The position numbers and the translations under genes were made by a program. From Mobula hypostoma (taxonomy: Eukaryota), in assembly GCF_963921235.1 (NCBI RefSeq), contig NC_086108.1, forward strand, positions 8,680,001 to 8,744,000: DNA of 64,000 nucleotides, in the 5' to 3' direction. The notes under the pieces were generated by a model. It was not told the origin of the DNA and searched no databases. It saw nothing but the letters and a program-made list of their open reading frames with translations. Of this stretch, positions 37,132 through 45,183 are shown piece by piece. Within the stretch, counting starts at the first letter, position 1; every line of letters begins with the position of its first letter.

Positions 37132-37411
37132 TCACGATCCCAGGTCAACCAAGCTGGAGGTGAGGGGCCCCAGGATGGAGCCCTGCAGATGCCGGGGGTG
37201 CTGGAGCACGGGGCTGCCCAGCGGCAGGACCGAGTCTATGGGCTGGGCGTGGAGGCCGCCGGGGTACAAGATTCCTGGGGTGCCGGCCCGAGGGTCGGGA
37301 CTCAACTCTGGTGACATCTCCTCTTCGTCCGAGCTGCTCAGGGTGAGACCAGCACCTTGCACCTGGCGGTGTGGCTGCCGGCCCTGAGGGTTGGAGTTCT
37401 CGCCGTTCTCC
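37132..37411 (-). CDS. six1-like: SIX1-like coding exon 3 (C-terminal region)
   Basis: Acceptor CCTCCTCCTTTCTCCACAG|G completes a phase-2 Arg codon. Encodes ENGENSN...[16 protein letters not shown]...[18 protein letters not shown], then TGA at 37134-37132. Confidence 0.92.
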
Positions 37412-40400
37412 CTGTGGAGAAAGGAGGAGGCGTCAGTGAGGTGGCCCTGTCGACTTGCTATGGGTCCCGTAGACATGTCGGGGGACTCTGTGGGTTCAAT
37501 GGGTATCCATCGCCTCACATTCACAAACATCCCTGTCTCCACTTTCCCCCTCACTCCTGAATCACTCCTCAACTCTCCCCTTAGTCCTGGATCAATCTCA
37601 CTCCTGAATCGCTCACCAACTCTTCCCTTACTCCCAGATCAATCTCACTCCTGAATCGTTCCGCAACTCTCCCCTTCTTTCCCCTTACTCCCGGATCGAT
37701 CTCACTCCTGAGTCGTTCCCCAACTCTCCCCTTACTCCCAAATCAATCTCACTCCTGAATTGCTCCCCAACTCTCCCCTTCTTTCCCCTTACACCCGGAT
37801 TGATCTCACTCCTGAATCGCTCCCCAACTCCCCCCTTACTCCCAAATCAATCTCACTCCTGAATCGCTCCCCAACTCTCCCCTTACTCCTGAATCAACCT
37901 AACTCCTGGATTGCTCCCCTCCCTCATCTCACTCTGGGATCTTTCTCCACCTCTTCTCACTCCCTGTCCCCTCCCAACTGCCAGGGCACACCCTTTCCCC
38001 TCTTCAGTTCCAGATTAATCCCCATTCTCCTCACTCCTAGATCTCGCTCTTCAGCTGCTCTGTCCTCAGTCTGGATCTCTCTTTAACTCCTATTCCAACT
38101 ACTGGATCAACCTCCACCCCCCCACATGCTCTTCTCAAATCCAGGATCACTCCACATCTTTAACCCAACTCCTTGCCCTGCCCCTTCTTCCCGCCCCACT
38201 CCCGGATCATTCTCCCTTCTGACTCTTAGTTCACTCCCCATCACCTTCCTCACTCCCAGGTCAGTTCCCGTCCCTTTCCCCAACTGCCAGACCCTTCTCT
38301 TTGTCCTACCCACTCCCGGATCACCGCCCTGTCACCACCCCCCCCCCCCCGTTCCGTCTCACCCTACTCCCTACTCCCCACCTGTCCTTGGTCTCTGCCG
38401 CTCGGTCCCTCTGCCTTCGGTTCTTGAACCAGTTGCTGACCTGGGTGGTGGTCAGTCCGGTGGCCTCCGCCAGCTCCCTCTTCTCCCGAGGGGAAGGGTA
38501 GGGGTTGTGCAGATACCAGTCCCGCAGGACACCCCGAGACTTCTCCTGGACGGTGGCAAAGAGAATTAGTTTCTCCTCACCTCAGAGATTCAACACAATA
38601 TCACCTGAATGTTAATGAGGGCTGCGAACTGTAGAAGAATACAGGCCCTTCGGCCCACCAGTTCATGCTAACCACCATGCACTCTTCCACCTTTTCTATT
38701 CGAAATGTGGTTTATTCATGGGAAATGACTCTAACTTCTGACACACTGAGCTGCGTTTTCATTCATTTCTAACGAAACTAGAATTTAGGGGGTCATAGGT
38801 GACGGGTGCAAGGTGAAATATTGGGGGGCCACTTATTTGGTAACATATTGACACAATGGGAATTCGTAAATGCAAGAGATTCTGCAGATGCTGAAAACAA
38901 AGTACAGCACAGAAACAGGCCCTTCAGCCCATCTAGTCCTTGCCAAACCATTTAATCTACCTAGTCCAATCAGCCCACATACCCTCCAAACCCCCACCAT
39001 CCAAACTTCGCTCAAACGTTGAAATCAAGCTCGCGTGCACTATCTGTGCTGGCAGCTCGTTCCACACTCTCACCACCCTCTGAGTGAAGGATCTTCCACT
39101 CATGTTCCCCTTCACCCTTAACCCATGACTTCTACAAATCCAGTAGTGTAGTGGTTAGCACAGCACCTTACGGTACCAGCAACCCGGGTGCAATTCCCGT
39201 TGCCAACCTGTAAGGAGTTCGTACATTCTCCCCATGTCAGCGAGGGTTTCCTCCGGGTGCTCTGGTTTCCTCCCACAGTCCAAAGACGTACCAGTTGGTA
39301 GGTTAATTGGTCATTGTAAGTTGTCCTCTGATTAGTTTAGTGTTAAATAGGTGGGTTGCTGGAGCAGAAGGGCATAAACCACACTGTATCTCAATAAATA
39401 CAGTGTAATGGGTAAATGCAAGAGATTCTGCAGCTGCTGGAAATAGAGCCATAGAAAATTACTCATGAAAACAGGCCTTTCGGCCCATCTAGTCTGCTCT
39501 GGATTACTTAAAATGCCTACTCCCATCAACCTGCACCGGGATCACGGCACTCCATCCCACTACCAGCCACATACCTGTCCAAACTTCTCTTAAACATTGA
39601 AATCGAGTTCTTATGTAGCACTTGCACTGGCAGCTCATTCCATATCCTCCCCAGCCTCTGTGTTTCCCTTCATGTTCCCCTTAAACTTTTCACATTTCAC
39701 CCTTAACCCTTGAGTAGTGCAGTGGAACCCATGCAGTTGTGGAACATAGAAACTTCTTACAGATTGATTCCTGGGATGGCAGGACTTTCATATGAAGAAA
39801 GACTGGATGAACTGGGCTTGTACTCGTTGGAATTTAGAAGATTGAGGGGGATCTGATTGAAACGTATAAAATCCTAAAGGGATTGGACAGGCTAGATGCA
39901 GGAAGATTGTTCCCGATGTTGGGGAAGTCCAGAACAAGGGGTCACAGTTTGAGGATAAAGGGGAAGCCTTTTAGGACCGAGATTAGGAAAAGCTTCTTCA
40001 CACAGAGAGTGGTGAATCTGTGGAATTCTCTGCCACAGGAAACAGTTGAGGCCAGTTCATTGGCTATATTTAAGAGGGAGTTAGATATGGCTCTTGTGGC
40101 TACGGGGGTCAGGGGGTATGGAGGGAAGGCTGGGGCGGGGTTCTGAGTTGGATGATCAGCCATGATCATAATAAATGGCGGTGCAGGCTCGAAGGGCCGA
40201 ATGGCCTACTCCTGCACCTATTTTCTATGTTTCTATTACAGACAGAGGCGGGAATTGAACACAGAACACTGTCTTAGGGAGTTTGTATGTTCTCCTGTGT
40301 GTTCCAGGTTTGTCCCACAGTCCTATCTCAACAAAACAGACAGACAGAAAGGTAGATAGATAGACAGAGAAAGGGAGATAAATAAATAAATATACAGACA

Positions 40401-43400: not shown

Positions 43401-45183
43401 GTCTAATACCAGAGGGCATGCATTGAAGGTGTGAGACGGTAGGTTCAAAGGGGATGTGAGGGGTAAGTTTTCTACTCAGAGAGTGGTGGATGCCTGGAAT
43501 GTGCTGCCTGGTATGCTGGTAGAGGCAAATACATAAGAGGCTTTTAAGAGACATTTGGAGAGGTACATGGATGTGAGGAAGATGAAGGGATATGGACATG
43601 GTGTGGGTAGGAGGGGTTAGTGTTTGGGTGTTTTTGATTTGCTTTTTAGCTGGTTCAGCACAACACTGTGGGCCGAATGGCCCGTTCCTGTGCTGTACTG
43701 GTCTATGTTCTATGTTCTATAACCCTCTCCAAAACTGATCGAAAGCCTACCTACCCCAAGACCTAACCCGAACACCAATCCTCTCCAAAACCGGCCCCTA
43801 ATACCCTCCAACTCTCATCACTTGACCCCAGCAATCAAGCCCCTCTAAACTGACCCCAATACTTACCAACCAAATCATCTGTCTGCCACCAACCCTAGAC
43901 AAAACTGACCCCAACACTTAGCAACCAGAATTCCTGACCCAACACAAATCTTCACGCACCGCTGACCCCCTCCTGAACCTTGACCCAAGCAACACACCAC
44001 TTCCCAACACTAATTCCTCCCCACCCCACAAAAACTGATAGCCCCGACACTGACCAGTTCTCATCCCCAAACACAAACTGTGCTGGTGCAACCTCATCTT
44101 CAGACCATAAAACACAGGATCAGAATTAGGCCATTCTGTCCATCAAATCTGCTCTGCCATTCCATCACGGCTGATTTAATCTCCCTCTCAACCCCATTCT
44201 CCTGTTTTCTCCCGTAATCTTTAACGCCCTTACTAATCAAGAACCCATCAACCACGGCTTTAAATATACTCAATGATTTGGCCTCCACAGTGTCGGTGGC
44301 AATGAATTCTACCCCCCGGCGAAAACAAATCTGTTCAAAAGGGTCACGCTTCCATTCTGAGGCTGCCCCAGCCATTCCCAGACTCCCCCCAACATCCTCT
44401 CCGTCCACCCTATCGAGGCCTTTCAATATTCGATCAGTTTCGGTGAGATCCCCCCTCAATCTTCTAAACGCCGGCGAGTACGGGCCCAGAGACCTCAATC
44501 GGTCCTCATATTGACCCTTTCATTCCCGGGATCATTCTCGTGTCAATCCGTGTCATTGGGTCTCCTCCAACGTCAGCACATCCTTTCTAAGATAAGGGGC
44601 CAAAACTGCTCTCAATACTGCAAGTGCGACCTGACCAGTGCCTTCTAAAGCTCCAACAGTACATCCTTGTTTTTATACTCTCGAAATGAATGCTAACATT
44701 GCATTTACCTTCCTCACCACCGACTCAACCTGTGAGTTAACCTTCAGGGACTGCTGCTCGAGGGTCGCCGCGCCGGCGGAGCCTCACCTTGAAGCAGTAA
44801 CTCGTCTCCTCTCCATCCCAGATGGTGCGGGGCAGCGGGAACTTCCTGCGGACCCTGTACTTGCCCACGGCCCCCAGGGGCCGCCCCCTCAGCTTCTCGG
44901 CTTCGGTATAGTGCGCCTTCAGCCACAGTTGCTGCAGCTTCGGGTGGTTCTGCGCCGAGAAGTGGCAGCTCTCCAGGATCTTGTAGAGTTCTCGGAAGTT
45001 GCCCCGATGGAAGGCAACGATGGCCTTGGCCTTCAGGACGCTCTCGTTCTTCTGCAGGTGGTCGCAGGGCGGCAGGGACCACAGGAACCTGCCCAGCCTC
45101 TCAATGCTGCCTCCCTGCTGAAGTACCTCGCACACGCAAGCCACCTGCTCCTCTGTGAAGCCAAAGGAAGTGAACATAGACAT
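37132..45183 (-). CDS. six1-like: SIX1-like homeobox protein (Six1/2 subfamily, SIX domain + K50 homeodomain); 3 coding exons, join complement(44788..45183,38382..38545,37132..37411), 279 aa; possibly a divergent paralog rather than the SIX1 ortholog
   Basis: Spliced frame is 396+164+280=840 nt with no stops. Kozak GCCACCATG, SIX domain [15 protein letters not shown]...[11 protein letters not shown] with the Six1/2-diagnostic ETSY, homeodomain with WFKNRRQR, and SIX1-type C-terminus [13 protein letters not shown]. All junctions are GT-AG. Confidence 0.93.
37550..37910. repeat. 47/57-bp minisatellite in Six intron 2
   Basis: CTCACTCCTGA at 37550, 37597, 37644, 37701, 37748, 37805 and 37852. 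Confidence 0.9.
38382..38545 (-). CDS. six1-like: SIX1-like coding exon 2 (homeodomain)
   Basis: Branch-point-like CTAAT and acceptor TCTCTTTGCCACCGTCCAG|GAG. Encodes [54 protein letters not shown]; donor AG|GTGGGG. Not in the supplied ORF track; read by hand. Confidence 0.95.
39141..39400 (+). mobile_element. V-SINE/HE1-like SINE (Six intron 1)
   Basis: Homologous to 16312-16594. Confidence 0.8.
39760..40236 (+). mobile_element. CR1 3' end, same subfamily as 22393-28460
   Basis: Near-identical to 25205-25265 plus 28035-28460. Confidence 0.9.
40335..40585. repeat. (GATA)/(GACA) microsatellite
   Basis: Directly visible. Confidence 0.9.
41135..41843 (+). mobile_element. CR1 3' fragment, same subfamily as 47740-51582
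   Basis: LYKALVRP-like and YCVQFWSP motifs; (GGTTATAT)n tail. Confidence 0.9.
43235..43720 (+). mobile_element. CR1 3' fragment
   Basis: [15 protein letters not shown]; (TTCTATG)n tail. Confidence 0.85.
44103..44750 (-). mobile_element. CR1 3' fragment about 40 bp inside Six intron 1
   Basis: [22 protein letters not shown]. Confidence 0.8.
44788..45183 (-). CDS. six1-like: SIX1-like coding exon 1 (SIX domain, aa 1-132)
   Basis: [25 protein letters not shown]...[14 protein letters not shown] followed by donor AAG|GTGAGG. An in-frame upstream ATG at 45261 in weak context could add 26 aa. Confidence 0.95.

What the first reader, a model, noticed from the sequence alone, without database searches (positions are those of the whole stretch)
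37132..45183. Divergent three-exon Six1/2 gene with an extra intron in the homeodomain: candidate additional (Six9-like) paralog
Seen: an intact 279-aa spliced frame with an intron after coding nt 560 and a second 6.2-kb phase-0 intron between K132 and E133. Known: mammalian SIX1 and SIX2 have two coding exons with only the later intron, and their SIX domains are nearly invariant across jawed vertebrates. Against human SIX1 as I recall it, I count about 13 substitutions in the first 132 aa (e.g. [10 protein letters not shown] vs ESHQFSPHNH) and a largely remodelled C-terminal region that keeps only SSSDEE-SP and [13 protein letters not shown]. No other Six gene is visible in about 37 kb downstream or 19 kb upstream, and the locus is saturated with transposons. 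Inference: this is not the canonical six1 but a fast-evolving ohnolog lost from mammals, perhaps related to teleost six9.
Basis: partly seen in the sequence, partly recalled or inferred. Interest (0 to 1): 0.8.

Follow-up and report, generated by a model that had tools for sequence, protein, structure and literature searches.

The report
Third ancient Six1/2 homeobox paralog
This is an intact third copy of the Six1/Six2 developmental regulator gene, distinct from the ray's ordinary six1 and six2, that dates from the early vertebrate genome duplications, carries an extra intron inside its DNA-binding domain, and was not seen in mammals or birds.

Summary
The minus strand carries a three-exon, 279-codon Six gene with GT-AG introns: 45183-44788, 38545-38382 and 37411-37132. 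The same 3.48-Gb genome also has an ordinary six4-six1-six6 cluster and a six3-six2 pair. In those five genes the SIX domain and homeodomain lie in one exon, so the window gene is a sixth, separate Six locus.

Its closest relatives are proteins annotated "six1-like", "six1a-like" or even "SIX5" in rays, sharks, a chimaera, coelacanth, lungfish, a caecilian, salamanders and squamates. They form one group apart from Six1 and Six2 (SH-aLRT 97, but bootstrap only 45).

About 70 kb away lies a third HIF-alpha gene, followed by NOP53 and an EHD2-like gene. As I recall the human map, that matches the 19q13.3 (SIX5/HIF3A) region. No six5 or six7 is detectable in this genome.

Four squamate sequences and one teleost six9-like gene model also lose colinearity exactly after "CFK". 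The extra intron therefore looks like an old marker of this lineage. Orthology to teleost six9 is plausible but not proven.

No RNA evidence could be obtained. The gene is already annotated in relatives, so interest is moderate.

The parts
44788..45183 (-). Coding exon 1: ATG (GCCACCATG context) to K132. Holds the whole SIX domain and the first residues of the homeodomain (…GEETSYCFK). Donor is GTGAGG.
   Evidence: SIX1_SD E 2.1e-49; 119 of 132 residues identical to human SIX1 of PDB 4EGC
38546..44787 (-). Intron 1, 6,242 nt, phase 0, GT…AG. It splits the homeodomain between K132 and E133 and is absent from the other five Six genes of this genome. It contains a (GATA)n array.
38382..38545 (-). 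Coding exon 2, 164 nt: E133-D186 plus 2 nt of codon 187. This is the rest of the homeodomain.
   Evidence: Homeodomain E 2e-14, Homeobox_KN E 4.5e-16
37412..38381 (-). Intron 2, 970 nt, after coding nt 560 (phase 2). This is the canonical Six1/2 intron position. It contains a 47/104-nt tandem repeat.
   Evidence: six1 and six2 exon-1 ORFs of the same genome end at the same point
37132..37411 (-). Coding exon 3: (R)[10 protein letters not shown]…[17 protein letters not shown]…[14 protein letters not shown] plus TGA. This is the divergent C-terminal region with the conserved terminal motif.
   Evidence: colinear with 14 aligned orthologs

Best explanation
The window holds an intact gene for a third Six1/2-class (sine oculis-type) homeodomain transcription factor, called 'clade C' here. 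It is neither six1 nor six2. It is an ohnolog from the early vertebrate genome duplications, retained in cartilaginous fishes, coelacanth, lungfish, caecilians, salamanders and squamates, and probably in ray-finned fishes as six9. It was not seen in mammals or birds. It lies in a third HIF-SIX paralogous region whose neighbours (a HIF-alpha gene, NOP53, an EHD2-like gene) match human 19q13.3 as I recall that map, which is where SIX5 sits. It would therefore be the Six1/2 member of the SIX5 cluster, and this ray has kept it while six5 itself is undetectable. The lineage carries an extra phase-0 intron after K132 that splits the homeodomain. By homology (inferred, not tested) the protein binds Eya cofactors through its SIX domain and MEF3-type DNA sites through its homeodomain. 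It evolves several-fold faster than Six1 and Six2 but remains under clear constraint.
For: Gene structure: canonical GT-AG sites and a 279-codon frame; SD and HD domains.

Separate paralogs: only 6 SIX1_SD loci in the genome (6 matches of 14 candidates scored; 6 of 24). These are six4-six1-six6 on C1, six3-six2 on C22, and this gene on C50. All five others have SD+HD in one uninterrupted ORF.

Orthologs: the best hits are 'six1(a)-like' proteins at 97-89% identity over exon 1 in rays and sharks. A profile search also brings coelacanth, lungfish, amphibian and squamate members.

Trees: a 22-row clade C is recovered. SH-aLRT is 96 in the 72-row quick tree. In the careful 50-row tree it is monophyletic with UFBoot 45 / SH-aLRT 97, while Six1 has 99/90.

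Synteny: the three HIF-1-family hits in the genome lie beside the three Six1/2 loci, at C1:36.32 Mb, C22:35.07 Mb and C50:8.823 Mb. On C50 the HIF bHLH exon lies about 70 kb from the Six ATG. NOP53 exons and an EHD exon follow. The best PDB hit of the EHD exon is EHD2 at 276.7 bits against EHD4 at 257.4. The HIF bHLH exon scores HIF3A 83.8, HIF1A 82.6 and EPAS1 76.1 bits.

Shared intron: I scanned all stored proteins with the SD-end motif for rows where it is not followed by the expected start of the HD. Nine rows came up, and 5 of them break exactly after CFK. All 5 are clade-C or six9-type: Naja and Crotalus gene models, two unspliced ORFs that continue with V (a GTN codon), and a Coryphaenoides six9-like half.

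Rate: SD+HD core identity between ray and shark is 92.6% for clade C, 100% for Six1 and 99.4% for Six2.
Against: Protein phylogeny alone is weak. Clade C has only 45% ultrafast bootstrap. An AU test does not reject grouping the chondrichthyan clade-C genes with chondrichthyan six1 (lnL difference 14.6, p 0.133).

SYMPK and PPP5C, which flank SIX5/HIF3A in human (map recalled), lie on another contig, C40. A DMPK_coil search hit C1, C2 and C82 but not C50. The match to 19q13.3 is therefore partial, and the HIF3A assignment rests on a 1.2-bit margin.

The left flank could not be fetched. Expression is untested. Function is inferred from homology only. Absence from mammals and birds rests on two top-120 lists, not on genome searches.
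Confidence: 0.85

Rival explanations
1. Clade C and teleost six9 are not the same ohnolog. On this reading six9 and the gar 'six1-like' gene are fast-evolving derivatives of six1 or six2, or of a fourth paralog.
For: With gar P0227 and Seriola SIX9 added, the tree collapses and both sit on very long branches (1.5 and 4.9 substitutions per site). Holding them with Six1 costs only 2.15 lnL (p 0.425). six9 lacks the C-terminal LVDLGS motif (printout). Few diagnostic columns exist, and gar and six9 share none cleanly.
Against: The tree that holds clade C, gar and six9 together has a log-likelihood 5.34 higher than the free quick tree (p 0.746), about 7.5 units better than the Six1 alternative. The Coryphaenoides six9-like half breaks exactly after CFK, like the window gene. 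It is fused in one gene model behind a Six4/5-class gene that is only 72-76% identical to SIX4 proteins, while ray Six4 is 89-90% identical to tetrapod SIX4. That fits a six5-six9 pair in the SIX5 paralogon.
Confidence: 0.3
2. The gene belongs to a fourth Six paralogon that is lost entirely in mammals, not to the SIX5 (19q13.3-type) cluster.
For: The single-copy markers SYMPK and PPP5C lie on C40 at 40.75 and 37.29 Mb. No six5 sits next to the gene. The HIF exon is barely closer to HIF3A than to HIF1A.
Against: Only three HIF-alpha loci were found, none on C40. NOP53, which I recall as single-copy, and an EHD2-like exon lie next to the HIF gene, as in human 19q13.33 (human map recalled). In a teleost the six9-like gene lies behind a Six4/5-class gene.
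Confidence: 0.15
3. The gene is a lineage-specific duplicate of six1 in cartilaginous fishes, and the resemblance to sarcopterygian 'six1-like' genes is convergent or reflects separate duplications.
For: An AU test does not reject a clade of chondrichthyan clade C plus chondrichthyan six1 (p 0.133). Bootstrap for clade C is only 45%.
Against: The ML tree favours clade C by 14.6 lnL, with SH-aLRT 97. The gene has its own HIF paralog beside it, as six1 and six2 do. The K132 intron is shared with squamate members. C-terminal motifs are shared across the 14 aligned members.
Confidence: 0.05
4. The frame is intact only by chance or by recent death: an unexpressed or decaying copy.
Against: The whole protein is 96.4% identical to the Hemitrygon ortholog, and 173 of 175 SD+HD core residues are identical. 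All splice sites are canonical. A long list of columns is invariant across 14 orthologs that I estimate span more than 400 My.
Confidence: 0.04

Closest known systems
Vertebrate SIX1 (human SIX1, PDB 4EGC; ray six1 on contig C1)
   Same: Same SD+HD architecture and the ETSY motif. 119 of 132 residues of exon 1 are identical to human SIX1. The intron after coding nt 560 is the same, and so is the C-terminal [13 protein letters not shown] motif.
   Different: Different locus: it is not between six4 and six6. It has an extra phase-0 intron after K132 and a remodelled C-terminal region. It carries WYLH and AAETKD where SIX1 has WYAH and AAEAKE, and its core evolves roughly ten times faster.
Vertebrate SIX2 (ray six2 on contig C22 beside six3)
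   Same: Same class, 89% identical over exon 1.
   Different: Six2 forms a separate clade and lies beside six3. Its C-terminus ends NPMSSNLVDLGS, and its exon 1 is uninterrupted.
RefSeq/UniRef 'homeobox protein six1-like / six1a-like / six1b-like / SIX2-like / SIX5' of elasmobranchs, Callorhinchus, Latimeria, Protopterus, Geotrypetes, Ambystoma, Pleurodeles and squamates
   Same: These are the orthology group of the window gene. Hemitrygon akajei P0006 is 96.4% identical over 279 aa. They share length, motifs and, at least in squamates, the K132 intron.
   Different: Only the names differ. They are inconsistent and hide the fact that this is a distinct third paralog.
Teleost six9 (UniRef 'SIX homeobox 9', Seriola, P0307/P0342/P0343)
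   Same: Six1/2-class SD+HD protein. A six9-like gene model breaks at the same CFK position. The constraint tree with clade C is the best found.
   Different: Far more divergent: 242 aa, no LVDLGS end, branch of about 4.9 substitutions per site. Orthology is not statistically established.

Membership tests
SIX / sine oculis homeobox family | N-terminal SIX domain (SD) directly followed by a Six-type homeodomain | tested here: met
   PF16878 SIX1_SD E 2.1e-49 on exon 1; PF00046 E 2e-14 and PF05920 E 4.5e-16 on exon 2
Six1/2 (so) subclass | ETSY tetrapeptide at the start of the homeodomain, versus ETVY in Six4/5 and QKTH in Six3/6 (criterion recalled from the Six literature) | tested here: met
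   …[11 protein letters not shown] in exon 1. The same genome's Six4 has ERVY and its Six3/Six6 have QKTH.
Six1/2 (so) subclass | Closer to Six1/Six2 than to the other subclasses | tested here: met
   Exon 1 is 89% identical to the genome's six1 and six2, against 66-69% for six4, six6 and six3
Six1/2 (so) subclass | Intron after the homeodomain at coding nt 560, and a C-terminal …LVDLGS motif | tested here: met
Six1 orthology group | Lies between six4 and six6, and groups with Six1 proteins | tested here: not met
   six4-six1-six6 are on C1 at 37.29-37.47 Mb, while the window gene is on C50. The Six1 clade (UFBoot 99 / SH-aLRT 90) excludes it.
Six2 orthology group | Lies beside six3, and groups with Six2 proteins | tested here: not met
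   six3-six2 are on C22 at 33.02-33.21 Mb. It is outside the Six2 group in the trees.
Third Six1/2 ohnolog ('clade C') | Monophyly with shark, coelacanth, lungfish, amphibian and squamate 'six1-like' proteins | tested here: inconclusive
   Monophyletic in the ML trees with SH-aLRT 96-97 but UFBoot 45. The rival grouping is not rejected (p 0.133).
Third Six1/2 ohnolog ('clade C') | Its own paralogous chromosomal region (a HIF-alpha neighbour, as for six1 and six2) | tested here: met
   3 of 3 HIF-1-family hits lie near the three Six1/2 loci. HIF, NOP53 and an EHD2-like gene lie on C50.
Third Six1/2 ohnolog ('clade C') | Phase-0 intron between CFK and EKSR | tested here: met
   Direct in the window. 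Four squamate sequences break at the same residue, two of them unspliced ORFs that continue with V. Not checked on genomic DNA of other species.
Teleost six9 | Orthology to Seriola 'SIX homeobox 9' and the gar 'six1-like' gene | tested here: inconclusive
   Constraint tree +5.34 lnL, p 0.746. The Six1 alternative costs 2.15 lnL, p 0.425. A CFK break is seen in a six9-like model.
Teleost six9 | Adjacency to a Six4/5-class gene (seen in the fused Coryphaenoides model P0005) | tested here: not met
   No Six4/5-class exon in C50:8,680,001-8,944,000 or anywhere outside C1. This may be loss of six5 in this lineage rather than non-orthology.

The most novel reading that the evidence does not exclude
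Clade C equals six9 and is the long-overlooked Six1/2 member of the SIX5 cluster. On this reading it gained a homeodomain-splitting intron before cartilaginous and bony fishes diverged. The cluster was then resolved reciprocally: mammals kept SIX5 and lost six9, while this ray kept six9 and lost six5. Skipping the 164-nt homeodomain exon leaves an open 88-codon alternative frame. That could yield an SD-only protein that binds Eya but not DNA.
Probability: 0.3. Interest if true: 0.55.

Novelty: new member of a known kind. Interest (0 to 1): 0.4.

Why it matters
Reviews describe the vertebrate so-subfamily as just Six1 and Six2; I read passages of one such review (PMC8417317). A third, widely retained ohnolog changes the expected Six complement of non-mammalian vertebrates. 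It also gives a home to the inconsistently named 'six1-like', 'SIX2-like' and 'SIX5' database entries, and probably to the uncharacterised teleost six9. It offers a case of reciprocal paralog loss within one gene cluster. The clade-specific intron is a simple, robust marker for naming these genes. Studies of Six1/2 function in sharks, skates, salamanders, lizards or fish (placodes, kidney, muscle, regeneration) need to account for a possible redundant third copy.

Tried and rejected
Expression and junctions therefore remain untested.

C-terminal-only homolog search with Latimeria residues 190-287: 2 proteins passed of 111 candidates, the query itself and the lungfish. Uninformative.

Literature: seven full-text searches. 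In the held library 'six9' refers to a Fusarium effector or is a synonym of SIX6/OPTX2 (passages read in PMC6945027 and PMC7354691). I found nothing on fish six9 or on a third Six1/2 paralog. PMC6410792 (passages read) covers six7 only. PMC6550023 is not held.

DMPK_coil, Symplekin_C and PPP5 family searches found no marker on C50.

Earlier-findings look-ups returned nothing.

Canonical six1 was considered and rejected.

Diagnostic-column analysis gave too few informative sites to place gar or six9.

The first tree with Zosterops P0003 (which proved to be a duplicated Six3 model) and distant outgroups suffered long-branch artefacts. Those rows were dropped afterwards.

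
Full report
OBSERVATION

On the minus strand, 45183..44788 translates without a stop to 132 residues, from MSMFTSFGF… to …[11 protein letters not shown]. It is followed by GTGAGG. The stretch 38545..38382 is preceded by a pyrimidine tract and CAG. 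It encodes [54 protein letters not shown] and is followed by GTGGGG. The stretch 37411..37132 is preceded by …tctccacAG and ends …[11 protein letters not shown].

Joined by coordinates, the three pieces give 840 nt, which is 279 codons plus a stop. Intron 1 (6,242 nt) is phase 0, between K132 and E133. Intron 2 (970 nt) follows coding nt 560. Exon 1 differs from human SIX1 (the SIX1 part of PDB 4EGC) at 13 of 132 positions. Pfam finds SIX1_SD in exon 1 and Homeodomain in exon 2.

NOT SIX1 OR SIX2

The window is C50:8,680,001-8,744,000 of a 3.48-Gb assembly of 200 contigs. A search with exon 1 found 6 loci (24 candidates scored). The SIX1_SD profile found the same 6 (14 scored).

- On C1: six4 (37.286 Mb, +), six1 (37.380 Mb, +) and six6 (37.470 Mb, -).
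- On C22: six3 (33.025 Mb, +) and six2 (33.208 Mb, -).
- On C50: the window gene alone.

The identities of the other five follow from their ORFs. Searches with the ray's own Six4 and Six6 SD+HD added nothing except the window gene's two exons. No six5- or six7-type gene is therefore detectable in this assembly. In all five other genes the SD and HD lie in one uninterrupted ORF that ends at the canonical post-homeodomain intron. The K132 intron is peculiar to the window gene.

RELATIVES

With exon 1 as query (2,334 proteins at E<=1e-30 of 2,554 candidates, 120 listed), the top full-length hits are the following.

| Source name | Species | Identity over exon 1 |
|---|---|---|
| six1a-like | Hemitrygon akajei | 97% |
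| six1a-like | Pristis | 96% |
| SIX1-like | Pristiophorus | 94% |
| six1-like | Narcine | 93% |
| SIX5 | Amblyraja | 90% |

Ordinary SIX1 and SIX2 proteins follow at 89-90%.

A profile of 14 such proteins was then searched (2,987 at E<=1e-40 of 8,000 scored, 120 listed). It also brought Carcharodon, Heterodontus, Mustelus, Scyliorhinus, Callorhinchus, Latimeria, Protopterus, Geotrypetes, Pleurodeles, Ambystoma and seven squamates. No mammal, bird, turtle, crocodilian or frog protein of this type appeared in either list. That is weak evidence of absence.

TREES

A quick ML tree of 72 rows gave three jawed-vertebrate groups:
- Six1: 21 rows, SH-aLRT 86.
- Six2: 24 rows, SH-aLRT 81, disturbed by two long-branch rows.
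- Clade C: 22 rows (the window gene plus 21 database proteins), SH-aLRT 96.

The seven bird rows labelled SIX1B or partial SIX1 fell inside Six1.

For the careful tree I kept 50 rows. I left out the 7 bird rows, 15 further Six1 and Six2 rows (mainly ray-finned fishes, plus a few others), the unnamed P0244, and the gar and six9 rows. Clade C is again monophyletic and sister to Six1, but support is mixed:

| Group | UFBoot / SH-aLRT |
|---|---|
| Clade C | 45 / 97 |
| Six1 | 99 / 90 |
| Six2 | 51 / 55 |
| C + Six1 | 27 / 86 |

An AU test does not reject holding the chondrichthyan clade-C genes together with chondrichthyan six1 (lnL difference 14.6, p 0.133). Protein phylogeny favours an old third paralog but does not prove it.

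SYNTENY

The HIF-1 family profile hits exactly three places: C1:36.32 Mb, C22:35.07 Mb and C50:8,823,263. That is one beside each Six1/2-class gene. This matches the HIF1A-SIX1, EPAS1-SIX2 and HIF3A-SIX5 pattern of human 14q23, 2p21 and 19q13.3, which I recall from the human map.

I fetched C50:8,744,001-8,944,000. From 1,196 ORFs of 60 aa or more, I removed those with a similar copy elsewhere in the fetched DNA, leaving 580. I scanned the 300 longest against Pfam. The host-gene hits were:
- a bHLH_HIF1A exon at 8,794,812-8,795,729 (+);
- the HIF ODD exon at 8,823,245-8,823,823 (+);
- two NOP53 exons (-) at 8.877 and 8.921 Mb;
- an EH-domain exon (-) at 8.942 Mb.

The rest were TE families or nothing. 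The EHD exon is closest to EHD2 (276.7 bits, against EHD4 at 257.4). The HIF bHLH exon is marginally closest to HIF3A (83.8, against HIF1A 82.6 and EPAS1 76.1). HIF3A, EHD2 and NOP53 lie together in human 19q13.32-33 (recalled), the region that holds SIX5.

Against a clean match, Symplekin and PPP5C map to C40, and DMPK_coil hits are on C1, C2 and C82. A local tblastn with Six4/5-class queries found no remnant in the 264 kb from 8.680 to 8.944 Mb. The left flank could not be fetched.

THE INTRON AS A SHARED CHARACTER

Nine rows came up:
- 1 is the window's own exon.
- 3 are irrelevant: two Six2 variants or models, and one invertebrate DKSR form.
- 5 lose colinearity exactly after CFK.

The five are:
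- The Naja naja model P0243, which jumps to the C-terminal exon.
- The Crotalus horridus model P0101, which inserts an unrelated piece.
- P0292 and P0295, two unspliced ORFs from unnamed sources. They continue with V (a GTN codon) and then unrelated sequence. Their SDs are snake- and lizard-type clade C.
- The six9-like half of the Coryphaenoides model P0005.

The intron is thus shared by a ray and by squamates, which argues for a single old origin and for clade C. I could not see genomic DNA of any other species.

TELEOST SIX9

The 50%-identity representative library and cluster look-ups yielded Seriola 'SIX homeobox 9' (the UniRef name; NCBI calls it 'SIX2-like') and a gar 'six1-like isoform X1'. 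Both have SD+HD and very long branches, and adding them collapses the tree.

Holding clade C, gar and six9 together gave a log-likelihood 5.34 higher than the free quick tree (p 0.746). Holding them with Six1 cost 2.15 (p 0.425).

The Coryphaenoides model fuses two halves. The first is a Six4/5-class half with an ETVY motif. It is 72-76% identical to SIX4 proteins, whereas ray Six4 is 89-90% identical to tetrapod SIX4. The second half is 70% identical to Seriola SIX9. The two genes are therefore probably neighbours on one strand, in the same order as six4 then six1. All this fits six9 being clade C and the Six1/2 member of the six5 cluster, but none of it is decisive.

RATE AND CONSTRAINT

| Comparison (SD+HD core, 175 aa) | Clade C | Six1 | Six2 |
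|---|---|---|---|
| Ray vs shark | 92.6% | 100% | 99.4% |
| Ray vs coelacanth | 93.1% | - | 99.4% |

The window protein is 96.4% identical to the Hemitrygon ortholog overall. Residues invariant across the 14 aligned orthologs include V17, R110, Y129 and E133. I recall these as sites important for SIX1 function (Eya binding and BOR-syndrome mutations). The gene is faster-evolving but constrained.

HOW IT PROBABLY WORKS (INFERRED)

It is probably a nuclear transcription factor whose SIX domain recruits Eya cofactors and whose homeodomain binds MEF3-type sites, like SIX1 and SIX2. What is shown here is domain content, conservation, an intact frame and intact splice sites. What is not shown is transcription, binding partners, target genes and expression domains.

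KNOWN OR NEW

Orthologs are already predicted in public annotations under inconsistent names. The gene as such is not new. It is a new member of a known kind.

In the held library I found no paper describing a third Six1/2 paralog or fish six9. A 2021 review, of which I read passages, lists only Six1 and Six2 in the so subfamily (PMC8417317). Supplements and non-held journals were not seen.

Noticed in passing
window 35419-36696: A 1.28-kb imperfect (TG)n array (639 copies, 75% matches) starts about 440 bp downstream of the gene's stop codon. It keeps three frames of the minus strand open for 458-497 codons.
   Followed up: partly
window 37550-37979 (intron 2): Tandem repeat with a 47-nt unit (7.4 copies) and a 104-nt higher-order unit (3 copies, 91% matches) inside the canonical intron.
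   Followed up: no
window 40338-40582 (intron 1): A (GATA)n / AGATAGAT microsatellite of about 245 bp inside the extra intron.
   Followed up: no
window 59434-60350: A 0.9-kb (TC)n array (464 copies) that leaves all six reading frames open for more than 320 codons.
   Followed up: partly
window 12343-14303 (-), 19944-20492 (+), 22538-25322 (+), 48196-51640 (-): Fragments of LINE-type retrotransposons (RVT_1, Exo_endo_phos, zf-RVT, and an ALKBH8_N match next to an RT piece). All are broken into short frames.
   Followed up: no
G000:C50:8,794,812-8,823,823 (loci L026, L028): A third HIF-alpha gene on the plus strand, head-to-head with the Six gene about 70 kb away. Its bHLH exon is marginally closest to HIF3A among solved structures.
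   Followed up: partly
G000:C50:8,876,673-8,942,567 (loci L034, L038, L040): NOP53 exons and an EHD2-like exon, both on the minus strand, beyond the HIF gene.
   Followed up: partly
whole genome G000: No six5- or six7-type gene is detectable: only six SIX-domain loci were found. The Amblyraja ortholog of the window gene carries the name 'SIX5' in its source.
   Followed up: partly
protein P0005 (Coryphaenoides rupestris, 433 aa): A gene model that fuses a Six4/5-class gene with a six9-like gene. This implies the two are adjacent on one strand in that teleost.
   Followed up: partly
protein P0003 (Zosterops borbonicus, 444 aa): A Six3 model with an internally duplicated SD-HD stretch, probably an assembly or annotation artefact. 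It caused a long-branch artefact in the first tree.
   Followed up: partly
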